Of a stretch of DNA of 64,000 nt, positions 5,854 through 61,836 are shown in pieces (within the stretch, counting starts at the first letter, position 1; each line of letters begins with the position of its first letter). Made by a program: the position numbers and the translations under genes. Source of the stretch: Octopus vulgaris (lineage: Eukaryota); the NCBI GenBank assembly GCA_951406725.2, contig OX597817.1, positions 115,196,001 through 115,260,000 of the forward strand. The letters run 5' to 3'. The notes under the pieces were generated by a model that saw only the letters and a program-made list of their open reading frames with translations, ran no database searches and was not told where the DNA came from.

Positions 5854-6019
5854 GGCGCAGGAGTGGCTGTGTGGTAAGTAGCTTGTTTACCAACCACATG
5901 GTTCCGGGTTCAGTCCTACGGCGTGACACCTTGGGCAAGTGTCTTCTACTATAGCCTCGGGCCGACCAAAGCCTTGTGAGTGGATTTGGTAGACGGAAAC
6001 TGAAAAGAAGCCCGTCGTA

Positions 6020-6063
<44 letters not shown>

Positions 6064-6280
6064 TGTGTGTGGTTGTGTGTCTGTGTTTGTCCCCCTAGCA
6101 TTGCTTGATAACTGATGCTGGTGTGTTTGCGTCCCCGTTACTTAGCGGTTCGGCAAAAGAGACTGATAGAATAAGTACTGGGCTTACAAAATAATAAGTA
6201 GCGGGGTCGAGTTGCTCGATTAAAGGCGGTGCTCCAGCATGGCCGCAGTCAAATGACTGAAACAAGTAAAAGAGTAAAAG
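5854..6280 (+). mobile_element. tRNA-derived SINE, family B, full length with internal (TA)n
   Basis: Head GGCGCAGGAGTGGCTGTGTGGTAAG..GGTTCAGTCC, CORE-like ACCTTGGGCAAGT, internal (TA)n at about 6018-6060, and a 3' half ending GAAACAAGTAAAAGAGTAAAAG. Other copies occur in the window. Confidence 0.9.
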
Positions 6281-19293: not shown

Positions 19294-20693
19294 CATCCAT
19301 CATCCTCGTCAGGTGTCGCACTATGCGATGTTGTGGTCATCATGATGTCTTACCACCTTCTCCTGTATTCTACCCCCATAGACAGCTGAGAATAAAGACA
19401 ATCCAACGGCTGCGATGTCTTTCAGCCAAGAAGTGGGTGTTCTGCCTCTTTTACGTTTGACATTCACCTTGCCAGTTATGATCGTTCGCTCAAGTCCATC
19501 CCGGCGCATGATGTGGCCAAAGAACCGTAGCTTCCGATTCATGATGTTTCACTGAAGCGTCATCTCACAACTGAGCTTTTCTAGTACCCAGTTGTTCGTC
19601 CTTCTTTCCGTCCACGATACTCTAAGGATTCTGCGGTAACACCACATTTCAAAAGCGCTCACTCTTTTCTCGTCTCCTTTCAACATTGTCCACGACTCGC
19701 ATCCGTACGTCGCGATAGAGAAAGCGGCAGCCCGAAGTAGCCTTATCTTCAGCAGCATTGATACGCCACGACTCTTCCAGATGTTCTCCATATCTTGTAC
19801 CGCTTGCCTCGTTATCGCAAGCCTTCTCCTTATCTCTGGTGTACTTGATCCACTGGTGCTGATTGTGGATACCAAGTACACAAAATCATCCACTTCCTGA
19901 ATCATCTATCCGTATACGGTGAAATCACCTTGGTCTGTCCTGTACTTATTCACCACCAAGATCTTTGTCTTTTTTACATTCAGAAATAGGTCACTTTGTG
20001 CACTCATGTCTTTCACTTTGCGTATCATCTGCAGCAATTCGTCCTTGCTGTTACTTATGAAGGTTGTGTCATCGGCGTATCTCAGATTGCACAGCCTTTC
20101 TCCGCCAATCTGCACACCACCATCGTAGTTCTCTTTCACCGCTCTTATGATGTTTTCTGCATAGATGTTGTACAGATATGGAGACAGAACACATCACTGT
20201 CGGACACCCCTCTCAATGCCGAACCACTCAGTGTCACCGACGGACGTCCTGACAGATGACTGTTGATCTTCTTATAGTCGCGCCAACAGTGCGACTAAGT
20301 GTTCAGGAAATCCCATGTCCTTCATAACGTCCCACAGCTTGCTGTGTCTCACACGGTCGAAGGCCTTAGAGTAGTCGATGAAACACACATAAAGTGGGAT
20401 GTTACATTCCTTAAACTTCTCGATCATCATCCTGATGTTGACTATCTGTTCCCTTGTTCCTCTGCTCTTGGCAAAGCCGGCTTGTTCCTCGGCGATGACA
20501 CTTCTATATTTCTGCTGCAGTCTACCTACGATGATTAGCAGCAGGATCTTGCTTGCGTGGACCATAAATCTGATGGTTCGGTGGTTAGAGCACTCGCGCG
20601 GGTTGCCTTTCATTGGTATTGGTACGAAGACTATACGACACCAGTCGATCGGCCACTCCATGTCGTTCAAGATCTTGACACACAGTTTCCACA
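19294..20693 (-). mobile_element. 5'-truncated RTE-clade LINE (RT domain, few stops/frameshifts) with target-site duplication
   Basis: ORFs contain ECSNHRTI, EEQAGF..RGTREQI, FIDYSKAFD, NLRYADD, YGCESWT, AFEMWCYRRILRVSW and FFGHIMRR. The tail is (GAT)-type. The TSD AAACAG(T/G)TCAT lies at 19283-19293 and 20694-20704. Confidence 0.93.
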
Positions 20694-23600
20694 AAACAGG
20701 TCATAAATAACTATTATTAATCAACGCACTTATACTGTTTAAAAAAAGCGATCTGTATCTACACAATGATGTACATCTTCAGTGGGGTAGATTAAAATAA
20801 GAGCATTATTGAGAATATAGGGTGTTAGACTGCCGGTTGAAATCAATTCGTTGCTCAGCAGTCTAATGATTCACATAAATTTCAGACTCATCAGTCATTT
20901 AGTAGTAATAGGCAGAAATATGTATGCAGTATAAATGTAAGTTATTGAATCTCTTCCACTAGCGTAGCTGATATAAATTAACACTTGTCACATTTAAAGC
21001 ACTACTACCGCATATATCTGCGGTTTGTCCCTACCCATTGGTACTGACACAGTACTACTTGGCCGTCATCTTTTGGATCCTAGTACGATTTGTCGATTCT
21101 GTCCTTTTTGAATTCTTTTTATTTGTTCATATCGGAAATAATTATAGAATTTACCTGTCGGCTGCAATTCAGATAACATGATCTCTTTGAAGACTACCTG
21201 ATTTACGTACAATAATATGTCCTTGACAAACTAAAAGAATAAAAGCCAAATCTCTCTCGAAACATAAACCCCTCCTTCAATAACGAAGGAAGCATTTAAC
21301 AATACATATATTTCCTGGATAACACTTGGAAATTTCGACCTCTCGACTGACCAGCAAGATTTAAGGTAGGGCTAAATAACAACAACAGAAACAAATATTC
21401 AGTTTTATCTAGATATGTGACACGATCCCTATATTCTACCAAGGATATTTTGGCTATTTTACCAAACACATTTCTTGTTTCAAACCCACTTAGTTTCGAG
21501 TTAGATGGAAGTCAATAGTTAAATTTTGTGATTCTCAGGCCCCATCAAAATTATAACATTGATAGAAGTTTCGTAATCTTTCGCTGTTGAGGTAATGAAT
21601 ATTGATTTCTAATATTGATATGAAGCCACATATTTTGGATATAGTCAAGTACTCAGAACTTGTCTGGCATTTTGCCTTATCAACCACAGAAAATGAAAGT
21701 CAAAGTCGACCTTGGTCGGATGTAAATGTGCGAAGTTAATATACATCAGTTACATTCTGCAAGCAGAAATTTTTACACGGACGTAGGTTCTCCATTTTGT
21801 GGTTTCAATTGTAATGTTTAGTATAGTCATAGCGTAAAATATATTGGTTCATTCATGCAACATCCCGATGCATTTATTTCTATTCCAAGCTTATCAATGC
21901 AGCAAGGATAGTAAAAATGTGTTTCTGTTTTATGATATTTTGGCTAGCTGGATTACTTCCGAATGTGTTCTTTATTTGTTTTTTTTCTGCTAATACCATG
22001 AGCAATGAGCTCTATATCTTCTAGATGCACATTGTACCTTCCGTTACATGGTGTCTTTTGGTAAATCTCAAGTTACTGTCAATTAAAATTAGAACATCAT
22101 ACCTCTACACTCCAAAACTACACTCTGAAAAGTATTCAGAATAATTATTAACTGAAGTAACATTACCTTCTTCTCTTGATTGCACTTAGACAAGGATAAA
22201 TGCTATAGAAATTGCCTTGACTTCAAGAAGCAAGGGCAAATGGAAGAACATTTTGGGATGTAACCTTATTTTGGTAAAATACCTATCACAAATAACCATT
22301 GAACTAGTTGAACTTTTAATGGAAACCGTAATGACTCAACGAAGTAAATATAATGGGGTCTTTTAGTTTAATGGAGTCTTAATGCTAGGTATTTTGTTGC
22401 GAATATCCCATCAATGTTGAACTGGTTTGTCCTATGGTTACAGGAAATGTGCCGGTGCCTTAAGACAGGTTACGATTTCACGGGGAGTTAAATGTTTTTT
22501 TTTTAAATAACATGACATATCTTATAAGTTGTTCCAAGCTGCCGAATCGTAACGCGTATCTTATATATCGACCTTTGTGACTCTTGCAATGGGGGAAAAA
22601 ACATAAAAAACAGAAGAAAATATTTTCCATGGAGATTGCAATCGATTTATCATTGGCAATTATAGATGGTATTTTTGAGAATTATCAAATAATACGGTTG
22701 AAATCATAAAAAGTCAAACTGGATGCTGTCCAAATAGGATTTCTGCGAAGTTGAAAAGAATAAATGGAATAGTGACAGGAAAATCATGATAGCTGCCATG
22801 AATAGATTAAAATTGTTATTGGATATATGTCCAATTTGTGTTTATGACTTTGTTATTTCGGAAGGCTGTGAACCTTATTAAAATTTAATTCCAAGATATA
22901 TGGTATGTCTTAAGGCATTTTGAAATGTGATGAGTTATTTTTAGTGTTTTAGTTGAAATGATATTGTTGCAATGATTGTTTTTAAGAATGATACAGTTCG
23001 CAAGATTCATTTTGATAGAGTTCATGGAGATAGTAAAAGCGTACAAAGTCATGTTTAAAGAAGAGAAAGTTAGCAAATGTATATAGAACCCACACATCTA
23101 CTCACGTGCATACGAATTCTTTCAAAAAGAAATTGGGTTTTTCGAAAGAAATATTCAAAACACTCCGCTAAATAAATAAGCTTTTCTTGTAGAAATATGA
23201 TCAGCCACACTTTCATGCAGGAGTTGTTGAACATGACCACTTAAAAGCTTCCCTATTGATCTGCTGTTTAGAATATAGAGGCAATGTGTAGTTACAATGC
23301 CAATGTATATTATAGAACATTTTCCCGCAAGTATTTCGGATTAGAGGCAGCGGGAGAACAAACTGAACCACTGATTTGCATTGGGAGATGATATACCATT
23401 TCTAAAGCATTGCACTCAACTCCATACGTCACAGTCTCATAAATAGACCATTACTTCTGAGATTTATGGGTAAACTGTATTTTGTGGCGCTTTGTCCGAA
23501 CATTAGCAATTTAAACTATTGTAGGCAATAAGTTAGAACCACATCAATACTAAGCAGTTTATTATACAAGCCACGACACAAATGAAATAATAAATGCCTT

Positions 23601-36754: not shown

Positions 36755-37316
36755 GTCCCGATGCAGTATCAGGCAGTGGCTCTCGTGGATTCTTATATTA
36801 ACTGATTGGAAGTGATATCATGTGCATTGTTTTGCCTTGGTATAAAAGATGGCTACAACAAATATTCAGTTGAATAACACAGGTTTGCTTGTCAGTTGTT
36901 TGACCTTAACCAGTTGAGCATGTCCCTTAGTTGCTGACGATATGTGCATCTCTGATCATGAGCAGAAGTAGTGGGGGAGCATCATAGCCATGATAGAATA
37001 TGTGCTGAGGGGGATTTCTGGGGTTTCAATGATTCACCTCTGGAAACATGGGTGTTTCGTTCAACTTCCCTAAACAATCCTTATTTAGGGACCTTTTGAG
37101 CGGGATGGGTTACTCGACCATAAGAAAATTCTAACTAGGCCCTACCTGCGAGGTCATGTGCTGTTTATCTTGATAAACGATCATCATGTCGTGCACATAT
37201 GGTTGTGACGTATGTGCTTAGTGTACCCTTATAGGACGAGTAGTCATGATGAGTATACTGGGCTTCGTATATTTTACCCCAGTGTCACTTTGATGGCGTG
37301 CACTGCTCTCTCATTC
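36754..37316 (+). mobile_element. ~560-bp non-coding interspersed repeat inserted in (AAT)n
   Basis: Flanked by (AAT)n on both sides and ends CACTGCTCTCTCATTC-AATAAT. Homologous minus-strand copies at 39121-39326 and 39860-40350. Confidence 0.8.
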
Positions 37317-37332
37317 AATAATAATAATAATG

Positions 37333-37368
<36 letters not shown>

Positions 37369-37371
<3 letters not shown>

Positions 37372-38668
37372 CATAGAATGCACCACCCTAAGGCAGATAC
37401 AGAACGACTCTATCTGCCAAGAAAAGAGGGAGGCCGTGGTCTTTTGCAACTGGCAATAACAATGAAGATTGCTACAATTGGTCTAGACACCTACCTGAAA
37501 AACTCTGAGGACTGGATGTTAAAACTTGTCTCAAAACATGAAAACAAGAAAGCATCATACTCAGTCACAAAACAGGCAAAGGAATATCTAAGTGAATTCC
37601 GAATACAACAAATTTCGGAATTAGAGATAGATATACAAGAAACAAGCACAGAAAAAGCTAGGCGCATGAAAACCCGTGCCAAATCTGCGGCCTTAGATAT
37701 TCTGAATAATAAATGGCAAGAAAAACCTCTCTATGGCAAATACCCAAAGAGAGCGAATAATGCAGATATCGACAAAGCCCTGACCCATCAATGGCTAATG
37801 GCCTCTGGCTTAAAATCTGAAACAGAGGGGTTTATCATAGCAGCTCAAGATCAATGCCTACCAACAAGAAACTACCAGGCCAACATATTAAAGAACGGCA
37901 GTAGCCCAACATGTCGTGTATGCCGACAACAAAATGAAACCATTGACCATGTTGTCTCCAAATGCAGTCTTCTAGCGCCTACAGAGTACCTCAGTAGGCA
38001 TGATAGAGCTGCACAATATATTCACTGGGTAATTTGCAAAAACCTGGATTTGCCCCATGAAAAAAACTGGTGGGAACACAATCCACCTCCTGTGCTTGAA
38101 AATGACCACATCTCACTCCTCTGGAACTTCACCATTCAAACTGACAGGAAGATAGATGCAAATAGGCCAGACATTATATTGAAAGACTTCAGACAAAGAA
38201 CATGCCTCCTCATTGATATGACTGTCCCAATCGATATAAACGTATCTGTCAAGACCTACCAAAAACTGAGCAAATATAAAGATCTTGAAATAGAAATCAG
38301 CAAAATGTGGAAGCTGAAGACTAAAACAATACCTGTTGTCATAGGTGCCCTGGGAATGATAGCGAAAGGGACTGATTGCTACCTAACTCAGATACCAGGA
38401 AACCCCAAAATGGCAGAAATTCAAAAGATAGTGCTCATGGGAACTGCTCATATCCTACGCAAAATATTCTCAATGTAATCCCAAGGTTTAAAACAAACTT
38501 TTTTATTTATTTATTTTTTTATTTATATTTTTTTTATGTATTAGACATTCACTAGTACAACAAAAAACAACAAATATATGGCACAGAACTTCCAACCTGT
38601 TGTCTCTTGAGATCTCTGGGTGAGACTTGGAGCCAACTTGTACAGACATAAAGCAAAAGTCAAACATA

Positions 38669-41718: not shown

Positions 41719-44302
41719 TAGTTTTATTTTTATAGCGTGCTTTCACTTCACTACCGAGCGCAGCTCTGTGTGCCTTGGGTATGTGCTGTGATTTGTTGTG
41801 ATGCTCTGATGGTTATTGTATGGAAAGTGCTCTGCGTAGGATGTGTGCAGTGCCTAGTAGTGCAATTTTCTGTATGATATATGTGTTTGTAAGTCCTGGT
41901 GTTTTTGTTATGTATTTGTCTGAATATTTTTTTATCATGCCTAATGCACCTACTATGATAGGAATTGTTTCTGTTTTCAGATTCCACATTCTAGTTACCT
42001 CTATTTCCAGGTCTTTGTATTTTGAGAGTTTCTCCATTTCTTTTAGAGACACGTTGTCATCTGCCGGTATTGATACATCAATTAGAAAGCATTTTTTCTC
42101 TTCATGATCTCTGACAACTATATCTGGTCTGTTGGCCTTAATTTCTCTATCTGTGTGTATCGGCATATCCCAGAGTATGGTTGCTTTCTCGTTTTCTGTA
42201 ACCTTTTCTGGTGTGTGCCTATACCATCTTTTTTCTGTTGTTATTCCATAATGTTGGCATAGCTTCCAGTGTATGTAGGTTCCAACTCTGTCATGTCTGT
42301 GAATATATTCCTTCTTAGCCAGGACTGGGCAGCTAGAGATAATATGATTTATTGTTTCTTGTCCATCTCCACATATTCTGCAGTTACTTGTAATATTTCT
42401 TTTCATTACATGTTTTTGGTAATTTCTGGTGGGGAGGCTTTGGTCTTGTGCTGCAATTAAAAATCCCTCTGTTTCTGCTTTGAGTCCTGAGCTTCTCAAC
42501 CATTGCTGGGATCTTTCTTTGTCTATTTCTTTTGCGTTTAGTTTAGTGCAGTATTTACCATGAAGGGGCTTTTCTTGCCATCGTTTTATCATGGTTCGTT
42601 GCTGTTCTATTTTTAGTTTGGATTTCATTTGTTTTATAGCTTTTGTTGTTTCTTCATCATCTTCTTCTTCTTTCTCGTGTTTATTAGGTGGTATGATTTC
42701 TTGTTTGTATTTGTCAGCTTCCTTAAATACTGAGAACAGTTTTCTGTTTTGCTCGTGTTTTGCTGCTATCTGGATCAGTTTTCCTTCCTTCTGAAGTAGG
42801 TATTTTTGCAGTCCTATGGTGGTTATTTTATAGTAGTTTTCCAGCTGTATAAGGCCTCTACCACCTTCTATACGTTGTATATATAGTCTTTCTATGTCAG
42901 ATTTTTGGTGATGCATCCTAGATCCTGTCAGTATTTTTCTTGTTTTCCTATCTATTTTGGACAGTTCATTTCGTGTCCAGTTAAGGATATTGTAGCTGTA
43001 ACTTATAACTGTGACAGCTAAAGTGTTGATACCTATTATCTTGTTTTTAGCATTGAGCTCTGTTTTTAGTATTGATCTAACTCGTCTATAATATTCTTTT
43101 TTTATTTTCTCTTTCATTTGTGTGTGTTGTGTCTTATCTAGTTCATGGATTCCTAAGTATTTGTAAGTTTGGCTTTGGTCTAATTCTTTTATTTCATTGG
43201 TTTTATCTAGTGTGATGTTGTTACTTTTAACTAGTTTTCCTCTTTTCATGGTTACTTTGGCGCATTTTTCTAATCCAAATTTCATATCTATTTCTTTGGT
43301 AAATCCATGAACTGTCTTTAATAGTGTTTCCAGCTGTTTGTCATTTGCAGCGTATAGTTTTAGGTCATCCATATATAAAAGGTGGTTGATCGTTTTGCCG
43401 TAACATTTATATCCGCATCCAGTTCTATTTAGCATATCAGATAGAGGTGACAGTGCCAAGCAGAAAAGGAGTGGAGAGAGCGTGTCTCCCTGGAATATTC
43501 CTCTTCTGATGGGGATGTCTTTGGTTTTCATGAGTCCCTCTTTTGTTTGGAGATGTAGGACTGTTTGCCATTTATTCATAGAGTGCTCTATGAATTTTAT
43601 GATTGTTGGTGCTACTTTGTTAATGGCTAGTGTTTCAAGGATCCATGTGTGGGGGATGCTATCAAACGCCTTTTTGTAGTCAATCCAGACCATACTGAGG
43701 CCTTTCTTCTTTCTGTGGCTGTCTTCAGTTACGGCTTTATTAATCATTAGTTGATCTTTACAGCCATATGAGCCTTTGCGGCATCCTTTCTGCTCTTCTG
43801 GGAACAGTTTGTTTTCGTCCAGGTGCTTGTTCAGCCTTTGCGATATCACTGCAGTAAATGCCTTGAACATAGTAGGGAGGCAGGTTATTGGTCTGTAGTT
43901 TTCTGGTTTTGCTGTTTCATTTGATTTGGGAATTAAGATGGTTTTCCCTTCGTGAGCCATTCAGGCATTGTCTCTGGCTCTGCTAGTATGCTGTTAAAGT
44001 TTTCAGCCAGCTTTTTGTGCATTCCTGTTAGATATTTCAACCAGAAGTTGGGGATCTTGTCATGCCCAGGTGCCTTCCAGTTGCTTAGTTTTGCAGTGCC
44101 TGGGTGACCTCTTCAGTTGTTATGGGGGTCCAAAGTTGTTCAGATGCCGAGTTTGTTATTTTGATACTCCTTTTTTTTGGCTGTTCGTTCGCCGACCATA
44201 TTTCTCTCCAGAATTCTTCCAATTCTTCTGCCGTTGGTGCTGCAGTGACTTCTATTTTATTTTTTCCCAGATCTTGGTAGAACTTTTTGGGGTTGGTGTT
44301 GA
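41715..44302 (-). mobile_element. R4/Dong-like RLE non-LTR retrotransposon, 5'-truncated, bounded by (AAT)n
   Basis: Contains the 715-aa ORF plus frameshifted upstream coding pieces (NPKKFYQDLG.., SNWKAPGHDKIPNFWLK). The 3' UTR is 41715-41812, and TAT repeats lie on both sides. Confidence 0.95.
41813..43960 (-). CDS. Reverse transcriptase + CCHC zinc finger + restriction-like endonuclease (retrotransposon ORF, N-terminally frameshifted)
   Basis: NYRPITCL, WIDYKKAFDS, GIFQGDTLSP, HLLYMDDLK, YKYLG, CRICGDGQETINHIISSC, RHD, RPDIVV..IDVSIP..KLSKY. Confidence 0.92.
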   Translation of the reverse strand: MAHEGKTILIPKSNETAKPENYRPITCLPTMFKAFTAVISQRLNKHLDENKLFPEEQKGCRKGSYGCKDQLMINKAVTEDSHRKKKGLSMVWIDYKKAFDSIPHTWILETLAINKVAPTIIKFIEHSMNKWQTVLHLQTKEGLMKTKDIPIRRGIFQGDTLSPLLFCLALSPLSDMLNRTGCGYKCYGKTINHLLYMDDLKLYAANDKQLETLLKTVHGFTKEIDMKFGLEKCAKVTMKRGKLVKSNNITLDKTNEIKELDQSQTYKYLGIHELDKTQHTQMKEKIKKEYYRRVRSILKTELNAKNKIIGINTLAVTVISYSYNILNWTRNELSKIDRKTRKILTGSRMHHQKSDIERLYIQRIEGGRGLIQLENYYKITTIGLQKYLLQKEGKLIQIAAKHEQNRKLFSVFKEADKYKQEIIPPNKHEKEEEDDEETTKAIKQMKSKLKIEQQRTMIKRWQEKPLHGKYCTKLNAKEIDKERSQQWLRSSGLKAETEGFLIAAQDQSLPTRNYQKHVMKRNITSNCRICGDGQETINHIISSCPVLAKKEYIHRHDRVGTYIHWKLCQHYGITTEKRWYRHTPEKVTENEKATILWDMPIHTDREIKANRPDIVVRDHEEKKCFLIDVSIPADDNVSLKEMEKLSKYKDLEIEVTRMWNLKTETIPIIVGALGMIKKYSDKYITKTPGLTNTYIIQKIALLGTAHILRRALSIQ

Positions 44303-50551: not shown

Positions 50552-51330
50552 TTTATCTTTTATCTTACACTTGTTTCAGTCACAAGAATGCAGCCCCGCT
50601 GGGGGCCACCTTGAAGGACTTTTAGTCGAATGTATCGTCCCCAGGATTTTTTTAAAAACCTTGCAGGTATTATATTATTCTCTTTTATCGAACTGCTAAT
50701 TTACGCGGACGTACACCACCAGCACCAGTTCTAAAGCGGTGGTGGAGGAAAACACAGACACAAAGACACACGCACGCTAACGCACTCACATATCCCTTCG
50801 CTTCTTTCTTCTCACTTTGCTCCTTTGCACCACATGAGCTCAACTCCCCTCCTATCTTCATCTGAGACCATTTATATTCAATATATATTACTAGCAAGGG
50901 AGCGGACCCTGGCTATCGCTCTGGGGACCAGGTACTCGCGATTGAGGATGAGCCAAGGAGCTCGAAACTGAATCAGTCTCCCGATCTTGCTGTCTGCTCG
51001 AGGACGGCAGGGGTTCGCTCCCCTAGCTAGCAATATATATTGTATATGAAGGATGTAGTGTCGCACCGATAACCAGCTGCTGTAAGATCTACCTGGGTTT
51101 ACACTAGTAGTAACATGGAACAGTCACTTTGACGTGGTGATTGACTGTACTTATGTATATAATTATAGGATGGGCTTTTTTCAGTATCCGTCTACCAAAC
51201 CCACTCACAAGGCTTTGGTTGGCCCAAGGCTATAGTGGAATACACTTTCCCTAGGTGATGCACCGTGGTAGCAAACACCGAGCCATGGGGTTTGGAAGCA
51301 AGCTTCTTACCCCAAAGCCACGCCTGCGCA
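50552..51330 (-). mobile_element. SINE family B split by a ~375-bp insertion
   Basis: The 3' half is at 50552-50790 and the 5' half at 51168-51330. Unrelated sequence sits where the internal (TA)n normally is. Confidence 0.8.
50936..50984 (+). ncRNA. Type I hammerhead-ribozyme-like motif within an inverted-repeat-flanked unit (50881-51040)
   Basis: TCGCGA-TTGAGGA-T-GAGC(caagga)GCTC-GAAACTGA(a)TCAGTC-TCCCGA. Stems II and III are perfect, the cleavage triplet is GUC, stem I pairs 5/6, and position 3 is U instead of C. Confidence 0.7.
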
Positions 51331-60880: not shown

Positions 60881-61240
60881 AGACAGCTCATGCCGTCAAA
60901 CACAAGAAATTCATTTATAATACACAACGGAGTCAGACATCTTAGAGTTCATGTATAGTTGATATATAGTTCATGTATAGTTGATATATAGTTTGAAGTA
61001 TATGTTCAAAGTGTTCGATGCAGTGGCTCACGGTGGCGATACGTATTCAATACAAAAAGCAGATCAAAGTGGTGGAAAGCGGTCAATACAGAAGATTGAT
61101 GTTTCCGAAAGAGTGAGGAATTCATTTTTACCTTAAGTAATTGTGATGACCCATGGTGGATGTTCGCTGGGTGGTTCTAGTGAGTTTTTGTGAAGTGCTC
61201 GGTTTTATAATGCCTGTTAGGTGGTCAATCCAGCGTAGCG

Positions 61241-61670
61241 TGACGTCATCAACGTTTTGACCAATCGTTTCGTTAGGTGGCTTTAGTCAAGTAGAACGGG
61301 ACGTCATCATTATTTTGACCAATCGCTGCATTATAACTGCCTCTTGTTTGTTTCCTGTTTTGACCAGTCGCTTCGTTAGTCAAGTAGAACGGGACGTCAT
61401 CATTATTTTGACCAATCGCTGCATTATAACTGCCTCTTGTTTGTTTCCTGTTTTGACCAGTCGCTTCGTTAGTCAAGCAGAACGGGACGTCATCCAGATT
61501 CTGCCCAATCACGACTTATAGCTACATTAGATCTGCCCCCTGTCTGTACTTGTTAGGTGACTAGTCAAGCAGAAAAGGACGTCATCAATATTCTGACTAA
61601 TGACTGTCCCCTGTTTGTATCCTGTCCATTCTAGCAGAGCTAGACGTCATCAACTTGTTGACCAATCAGA
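61241..61670. promoter_or_regulatory. Array of six GACGTCA-N12-CCAAT modules, including a 93-bp tandem repeat (61283, 61376, 61469)
   Basis: GACGTCA at 61242, 61300, 61393, 61486, 61578 and 61643, each followed exactly 12 nt later by CCAAT (one is CTAAT). Confidence 0.7.
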
Positions 61671-61836
61671 ATCGGGTCTGACCCTTAGCTCTATCGTATG
61701 TATCAGGGTCAGATTTGCACGAAATAATTTTTTTCCCTTTTTTACTAAGGCATATTTCCGTCAGAGTGAGTGTCTGTTTGAAGTAGCGGCCGTGGTGGAA
61801 TTTTGCTTCTCCTTTTCGGAGGACTTATCTTTTGTT

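What the first reader, a model, noticed from the sequence alone, without database searches (positions are those of the whole stretch)
50791..51167. Small non-coding hammerhead-bearing unit with ~30-bp inverted arms, nested in a SINE (retrozyme/solo-pLTR-like)
Seen: 50881-51040 begins ATATATATTACTAGCAAGGGAGCGGACCCT and ends with its near reverse complement GGGGTTCGCTCCCCTAGCTAGCAATATATAT. Between these arms is a type I hammerhead fold with GAGC/GCTC stem II, GAAAC, a 5-bp stem III (ACTGA/TCAGT) and a GUC site. The whole ~375-bp insert replaces the internal (TA)n of a family B SINE and has no coding capacity. Known: minimal type I hammerheads occur in Penelope pLTRs and in metazoan non-LTR retrozymes that make circular RNAs. 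Inference: a non-autonomous self-cleaving mobile RNA family whose long closing stem could allow monomeric folding. This copy has C3>U and one stem I mismatch, so it may be dead.
Basis: partly seen in the sequence, partly recalled or inferred. Interest (0 to 1): 0.75.

Follow-up and report, generated by a model that had tools for sequence, protein, structure and literature searches.

The report
Old Penelope-spread hammerhead retrozyme copy
This is one decayed copy of an old, widely scattered 360-base non-coding repeat that carries a predicted self-cutting RNA motif (a known class, animal retrozymes); its fixed ends, back-to-back arms and direct joins to pieces of a Penelope-like retrotransposon show the insertion pattern of that transposon type, whose enzyme likely copied it.

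Summary
The hammerhead, the long stem and the nesting in a SINE are real. But the element is not the 160-nt hairpin or the 375-bp insert. It is an incomplete copy (50899-51152) of a closed, circularly permuted 360-nt unit, scattered through the genome (1,241-1,301 first-look candidates; best other copy 86-87%). The family consensus has an intact, full-size type I core; this copy has C3>U and a stem I mismatch. Among 136 pieces in 80 loci, 83 3' ends fall at two fixed sites, mostly followed by microsatellite; 5' ends vary; 25 head-to-head joins occur; 29 pieces exceed one unit; none leads into an ORF. The 'inverted arms' are partly the family's own stem and partly a fold-back copy. 50807-50870 is a piece of a separate Penelope-like element with its own pLTR. 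Five of 80 loci, this one included, join that element directly to the unit. Verdict: a non-LTR retrozyme, likely moved in trans by a Penelope enzyme, and long inactive. Cleavage, transcription and circles are not shown. The scan has already reported younger families of this kind on other DNA of this genome.

The parts
50557..50790 (-). 3' part of the host SINE (split by the insert)
   Evidence: 69% over 229 nt to window 6061-6280
50807..50870 (+). 64-nt piece of an abundant Penelope-like element: the last codons of its endonuclease-like ORF and the stop. Truncated on both sides. Not part of the 360-nt unit.
   Evidence: 502 candidates, 87-95% over 54-64 nt in the 39 other scored matches. The flanks of those matches give RT-like and GIY-YIG-like frames (motifs recognised from recall; no Pfam hit) and a separate pLTR.
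50867..50903 (-). Short inverted copy of the unit's right stem arm (about c37-c74), joined in the shared GGAGCG. Inferred fold-back or second-arm product; it makes most of the 'left arm'.
50899..51152 (+). Main piece of the 360-nt unit, c281 through the cleavage site to c172 (c1 = first base after GUC); 85% to the family consensus; ends at the second of the two common 3' ends
50936..50984 (+). Type I hammerhead: stem I 50936-41/50979-84, core from 50942 (U in place of C3), one extra U between A9 and G10.1, stem II 50950-53/50960-63, GAAA 50964-67, stem III 50967-70/50974-77, predicted cut after 50978
51153..51329 (-). Residual microsatellite and 5' part of the host SINE
   Evidence: 81% over 181 nt to window 5855-6035

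Best explanation
This is a decayed, incomplete copy of an old family of 360-nt non-coding repeats with a type I hammerhead motif (an animal non-LTR retrozyme) that was likely copied into microsatellites by a Penelope-like element's enzyme. Shown: the closed 360-nt unit, the intact consensus core, dispersal, two fixed 3' ends, variable 5' ends, head-to-head arms, copies longer than one unit, microsatellite flanks, and joins to one Penelope-like family. Inferred: master copies were transcribed, the hammerhead cut the RNA to unit length, and the unit closed into a highly paired circle (or stayed an uncut tandem transcript). Also inferred: the Penelope endonuclease nicked AT-rich repeats, and its RT started at one of two internal sites (c~172 or c~218-230) and ran across the cleavage junction, sometimes from both DNA strands. 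For this copy the inferred path is one cDNA that started at c172, crossed the junction to c281, folded back for about 38 nt, jumped to Penelope RNA for about 64 nt and was joined into a SINE's microsatellite. The copy then decayed neutrally and probably no longer cleaves well.
For: Dispersed family: 307, 1,241 and 1,301 first-look candidates, 40 scored each. The consensus closes on itself at 360 nt; circular fold -157 kcal/mol against -101.5 +/- 6.1 for 60 shuffles; longest sense frame 58 codons. The 12 core positions are intact in 37 of 67 pieces (31 of 60 without pattern-picked loci); N7, the free position, is the variable one (G 35, A 27). 48 exact core-plus-stem-II matches, reversed-pattern control 0. 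83 of 136 3' ends lie in c165-177 or c211-233, a tenth of the circle; 31 of 52 do so in the loci found with a query that held neither site. 51 of those 83 have microsatellite in the next 20 nt, against 14% of random 20-mers. 80 of 136 pieces cross the cleavage site, 41 cross c231, 29 exceed 360 nt; 25 head-to-head against 2 tail-to-tail joins. Penelope fragments abut unit ends in 8 of 17 cases by script, 7 of 16 after one false hit was removed, against 0.6 expected (max 5 in 5,000 placements). Five of these joins are on the same strand with no microsatellite between them (window, L002, L040, L064, L084). These insertion features match those described for PLEs (PMC8557442 passages, PMC11167929 parts 1-2, PMC3846280 passages).
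Against: No covariation above shuffles (86.3% paired against 85.9 +/- 0.3; 15 against 15.6 pairs with double changes), so the structure rests on the consensus fold. Core conservation is only slightly above background (92.8% against 89.0%). No young master copy and no intact tandem array was found: best other copy 86-87%, longest piece 643 nt, and none of the 48 intact cores is near another. The class as described is mostly tandem. The inactive fold is predicted to be more stable than the active one. The 3' ends share no significant similarity with the partner's pLTR (score 32 against a shuffled mean of 39). SINE pieces also abut units more than chance (11 of 93 against 3.1), and two other repeats with hammerhead-like motifs lie in unit flanks, so adjacency can come from a shared target. 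Arms of one locus share only slightly more derived changes than unrelated copies (1.2% against 0.85% per site).
Confidence: 0.75

Rival explanations
1. The unit is the pLTR of an autonomous Penelope-like element that was not sampled; the copies are ordinary 5'-truncated tandem and inverted stumps.
For: The insertion anatomy is that of PLE stumps. The ribozyme has the extra base between positions 9 and 10.1 that Cervera and de la Pena list for PLE hammerheads (PMC4209133, passages). It has the same GAGC/GCUC stem II as the Penelope family next to it. Only 80 loci of more than 1,000 were read.
Against: Every long piece runs on into the unit itself: 41 of 136 cross c231 and 29 exceed one unit. 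Flanks share only SINE-like repeats and short pieces of other elements, in either orientation, with no common extension. 0 of 11 endonuclease loci and 0 of 30 pLTR loci of the neighbouring PLE family hold the unit.
Confidence: 0.13
2. It is a retrozyme-like unit copied from linear, uncleaved tandem transcripts, with no circular RNA stage; the hammerhead is inherited from a pLTR ancestor and played little part in copying.
For: For a lizard PLE in vitro, ribozyme mutants insert as well as wild type and uncut RNA is the main template (PMC11167929). The consensus is predicted to prefer a core-sequestering fold. Read-through of the cleavage site fits an uncut multimer as well as a circle.
Against: No tandem master array was found. 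The whole unit folds as a compact closed structure far below shuffles. Circles are documented for same-size mussel retrozymes (PMC7229834 section 14).
Confidence: 0.3
3. The Penelope piece at 50807-50870 and the other joins are successive independent insertions into shared microsatellite targets, not template jumps; the partner enzyme is then unidentified.
For: Both elements end in (TA)n. SINE pieces are also enriched next to units, 3.5-fold. Other hammerhead-like repeats lie in flanks.
Against: The enrichment is about 12-fold for this PLE. Five joins have no microsatellite and are all on the same strand. In the window the PLE piece is cut on both sides and both SINE halves lie outside it.
Confidence: 0.35

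Closest known systems
Animal non-LTR retrozymes (Cervera and de la Pena 2020, PMC7229834: sections 13 and 14 and passages read, supplements not read; Li, Clavereau and Pollet 2026, 10.64898/2026.07.22.740005: parts 1-3 of 5 read, supplements not seen)
   Same: Non-coding unit of 150-450 bp (mussel 350-390 bp), one full-size type I hammerhead per unit, GC under 50% (47.8%), highly self-paired predicted circle, thousands of copies, PLEs in the same genome.
   Different: Sampled copies are dispersed partial monomers to 1.8-mers with inverted arms, not long arrays. The family is old and decayed. Stem III is 4 bp with a palindromic 3-nt loop, where 1-2 bp is usual. No TSD seen at this copy. No RNA evidence.
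Endonuclease-positive Penelope-like elements and their pLTR stumps (PMC8557442 passages; PMC11167929 parts 1-2 of 4; PMC3846280 passages; PMC4209133 passages)
   Same: Fixed internal 3' ends at two sites, 5' truncation, partial tandems, head-to-head inversion with palindromic joins, AT-rich microsatellite targets, extra base between hammerhead positions 9 and 10.1.
   Different: No RT or endonuclease ORF; the unit closes on itself; the hammerhead is full-size, not minimal; the two end sites are about 58 nt apart, against the 30-40-nt tail.
Rfam Hammerhead_HH9 (RF02275)
   Same: Type I topology, GAGC-type stem II with a six-base loop, extended stem I with an internal loop.
   Different: 18.7 bits against a gathering score of 52: not a family match.

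Membership tests
Animal non-LTR retrozyme | Repeat unit of about 150-450 bp without coding capacity, GC under 50% | tested here: met
   360 nt, 47.8% GC, longest sense frame 58 codons
Animal non-LTR retrozyme | One canonical type I hammerhead per unit | tested here: met
   Consensus core intact, 6-bp stem I, 4-bp stem II; this copy has C3>U
Animal non-LTR retrozyme | Head-to-tail tandem organisation (dimers or more; monomer derivatives also counted by Li et al.) | tested here: inconclusive
   Units are continuous head to tail, 29 of 136 pieces exceed one unit, longest 643 nt. No array of two or more full units with intact ribozymes in 80 loci or among 48 pattern hits.
Animal non-LTR retrozyme | Highly self-paired predicted circular RNA | tested here: met
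   -157 against -101.5 +/- 6.1 kcal/mol; prediction only, no covariation support
Animal non-LTR retrozyme | Self-cleavage and circular RNA in vivo | not testable with these tools
   Only assembled contigs of runs with unrecorded library type were offered
Animal non-LTR retrozyme | No LTRs, primer-binding site or polypurine tract | tested here: inconclusive
   No LTR-like bounded repeat in the piece maps; PBS and PPT not searched
Autonomous Penelope-like element (pLTR) | pLTR attached to an RT plus GIY-YIG ORF | tested here: not met
   No unit piece continues into a shared ORF; 0 of 41 loci of the neighbouring PLE hold the unit. Sample of 80 loci, not the whole genome.
Autonomous Penelope-like element (pLTR) | Fixed 3' ends, 5' truncation, partial tandem and inverted copies, microsatellite targets | tested here: met
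Autonomous Penelope-like element (pLTR) | Minimal hammerhead (short or absent helix III) | tested here: not met
   4-bp stem III and extended stem I; the extra 9/10.1 base is shared
Rfam Hammerhead_HH9 | Gathering score 52 bits | tested here: not met
   18.7 bits

The most novel reading that the evidence does not exclude
The insert is the fossil of one reverse-transcription run that read a retrozyme RNA across its ligation junction, folded back on its own cDNA and jumped onto Penelope mRNA. With four more seamless retrozyme-Penelope chimeras among 80 loci, this names the specific Penelope family whose enzyme copied retrozyme circles, a partnership so far argued from co-occurrence and sequence kinship.
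Probability: 0.35. Interest if true: 0.55.

Novelty: new member of a known kind. Interest (0 to 1): 0.3.

Why it matters
Animal retrozymes and their proposed dependence on Penelope elements are published. This copy is old and probably dead, so on its own it is ordinary transposon debris. What the family adds is junction evidence: two fixed priming sites, read-through of the ribozyme cut site, and chimeric joins to one Penelope-like family. These make the trans-mobilisation model testable with one named partner. Five literature searches listed no paper on cephalopod retrozymes, and the main text of PMC7229834 does not mention octopus or cephalopods. Its supplements and those of the 2026 preprint were not seen, and Repbase or Dfam could not be checked.

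Tried and rejected
Covariation test on 47 of the 55 pieces that cover the stem (8 left out for large gaps or because a pattern had picked them): no excess over shuffles, as expected for neutrally decaying copies. Search for young or tandem master copies with near-consensus loci and with core patterns: none. U3/A8 compensated version of this core: none; the pattern found 2 matches, both U3 with G8, one being this copy. The unit as pLTR of the neighbouring PLE: rejected. Pfam on five PLE-like frames: only a sub-threshold GIY-YIG hit (E 0.0026) for a different element in L004, so the PLE clade is not assigned. The L087 'PLE' adjacency was a false hit to a repeat downstream of a query and was dropped. 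Expression: no RNA holder listed. Contigs of four runs of unrecorded type hold diverged relatives of the unit, and no contig covered 50881-51139 at 95% in four runs; neither is evidence on expression. Single-template test between arms: inconclusive because of age. No target-site duplication seen at the window insert. Search of earlier findings by sequence: nothing.

Full report
Observation. The quoted arms, stem II, GAAAC and GUC are at the stated places. 50881-51040 folds at -70 kcal/mol, z -4.33. Rfam gives only a weak HH9 match, 18.7 bits, E 0.73. The core starts at 50942 (U in place of C3), G12 is at 50964 and the predicted cut follows 50978. A monomer can form 4 bp of stem III with a 3-nt loop. 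The insert lies in the internal microsatellite of a minus-strand SINE whose two halves match another copy in the window.

The family. The 160-nt stretch has 307 first-look candidates in the 2.8-Gb own genome; the 40 scored are on many contigs at 78-85% for full-length matches. Aligning 30 loci and iterating gave a consensus that closes on itself at 360 nt. I number it from the base after GUC (c1). As a circle it folds at -157 kcal/mol against -101.5 +/- 6.1 for 60 shuffles; the ribozyme sits at the tip of a rod of about 60 bp. It is 47.8% GC, with no sense frame above 58 codons. Searches with two near-consensus loci gave 1,241 and 1,301 candidates, the best other copy at 86-87%. Copies are mostly 80-93% identical to the consensus, and CpG sites are the most decayed (74.5% against 88.5%). 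The family is therefore old and decaying neutrally. Earlier notes of the scan call this genome an octopus; the SINE fits that from recall, but I did not test it.

The ribozyme. In 67 pieces that span it, all 12 core positions are intact in 37 (31 of 60 without pattern-picked loci). C3 is C in 57. N7, the unconstrained position, splits G 35 / A 27. An exact pattern for core plus stem II has 48 matches, none clustered, with a reversed control of 0; loop II varies (CAAAUA 12, CAACCA 7 of 48). Stem I has 6 bp and stem II 4 bp, the canonical sizes. One extra base lies between A9 and G10.1, a trait listed for PLE hammerheads (PMC4209133 passages). C3 pairs with G8 and natural covariation is to U3-A8 (PMC3088659 passages). 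This copy has U3 with G8, and no U3-A8 version of the core exists in the genome. With the stem I mismatch, it is probably impaired (inference). Against the structure: no covariation above shuffles, only slight core excess (92.8% against 89.0%), and a core-sequestering fold predicted more stable than the active one, by 3.6 kcal/mol in the consensus and 4.6 in this copy.

Insertion anatomy. 99 loci from four searches reduce to 80, with 136 pieces. 3' ends cluster at c165-177 (29) and c211-233 (54); both main sites read TTTRCTT. Two queries ended near c230, but in the loci found with the window query, which held neither site, 31 of 52 ends fall there too. 51 of the 83 fixed ends are followed by microsatellite, against 14% for random 20-mers. 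5' ends are scattered. 80 pieces cross the cleavage site, 41 cross c231, and 29 exceed one unit (longest 643 nt). There are 25 head-to-head and 2 tail-to-tail joins. This is the pattern described for PLE insertions: partial tandems, inverted 5'-truncated copies and microsatellite bias (PMC8557442 passages), and internal RT starts at two sites after nicking AT-rich DNA (PMC11167929 parts 1-2).

This copy. The main piece is c281 to c172 at 50899-51152, ending at the second fixed site. The left 'arm' aligns best to the reverse complement of this copy's own right arm (50.5, against 42.5 for the consensus right arm and 35.0 for the consensus left arm). So 50867-50903 is a short inverted copy joined in GGAGCG. 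50807-50870 belongs to another repeat with 502 candidates. In 11 loci it is the end of an ORF with GIY-YIG-like and RT-like frames (motifs from recall; Pfam silent). About 700 nt downstream lies a pLTR with a minimal-type hammerhead-like motif and a fixed end in (TA)n. That motif has the same GAGC/GCUC stem II and extra base as the unit, but the two sequences are not otherwise alike (score 32, shuffled mean 39). None of 41 loci of that element holds the unit.

Partner evidence. Thirteen of 80 unit loci had a hit to this Penelope-like family. Eight of 17 fragments lay within 30 nt of a unit end, against 0.6 expected; one (L087) was a false hit, leaving 7 of 16. Five joins are on the same strand without microsatellite (window, L002, L040, L064, L084), one is head-to-head across (TA)n (L007), and one is unclear (L047). 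A SINE control is enriched less, 11 of 93 against 3.1. Two other repeats with hammerhead-like motifs also occur in flanks. Template jumping by one RT is the simplest reading; serial insertion at shared targets is not excluded.

Mechanism and rivals. Best reading (0.75): a non-autonomous retrozyme moved in trans by a Penelope enzyme, priming at two internal sites and reading through the cut site. Whether the template was a circle or an uncut tandem transcript is open. Arms of one locus share few more derived changes than unrelated copies (1.2% against 0.85%), which is inconclusive at this age. A pLTR of an unsampled autonomous element (0.13) is disfavoured, because long pieces always continue into the unit and flanks share no common extension. 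The rival confidences overlap and do not sum to one.

Comparison and novelty. It works like, and meets the testable sequence criteria of, the animal non-LTR retrozymes of PMC7229834 (sections 13-14 and passages) and the 2026 preprint deriving them from pLTRs (parts 1-3 of 5). Long tandem arrays were not found, and cleavage and circles are untested. It is not an autonomous PLE pLTR by the ORF test. The searches listed no cephalopod retrozyme paper; unseen supplements may hold one. The scan's earlier notes describe several younger families with the same anatomy in this genome; they are unchecked and were not used as support. Verdict: new member of a known kind, old and probably dead here; interest 0.3.

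Noticed in passing
L112-L141 (G000), query L071:2060-2275: The neighbouring Penelope-like family has 1,665 candidates for its pLTR. Its hammerhead-like motif reads U at core position 6 in the majority and has no helix III loop, and all 30 copies stop at one base before (TA)n.
   Followed up: partly
flanks of L007, L030, L108 and of L056, L102: Two further repeats with hammerhead-like motifs lie next to unit copies, probably pLTRs or retrozymes of other families.
   Followed up: no
L004:2411-3084 (-), L014:1009-1358, L066:476-724: Endonuclease-end fragments of a second Penelope-like family near unit copies; GIY-YIG E 0.0026, below cut-off.
   Followed up: partly
unit c55-57: Ten of 136 5' ends stop at c55-57, at the foot of the long stem; this may be an RT stall, but one query began there.
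   Followed up: no
window 61224-61676: Five to six imperfect repeats, several spaced about 93 bp, each with GACGTCA and mostly CCAAT motifs; promoter-like.
   Followed up: no
window 37294-38478 (+) and 41813-43960 (-): Open frames of 394 and 715 aa that look like the RT and C-terminal nuclease part of non-LTR retrotransposons, in opposite orientation (recognised from recall).
   Followed up: no
window 19549-20700 (-): Broken RTE-like LINE reverse transcriptase frames (recognised from recall).
   Followed up: no
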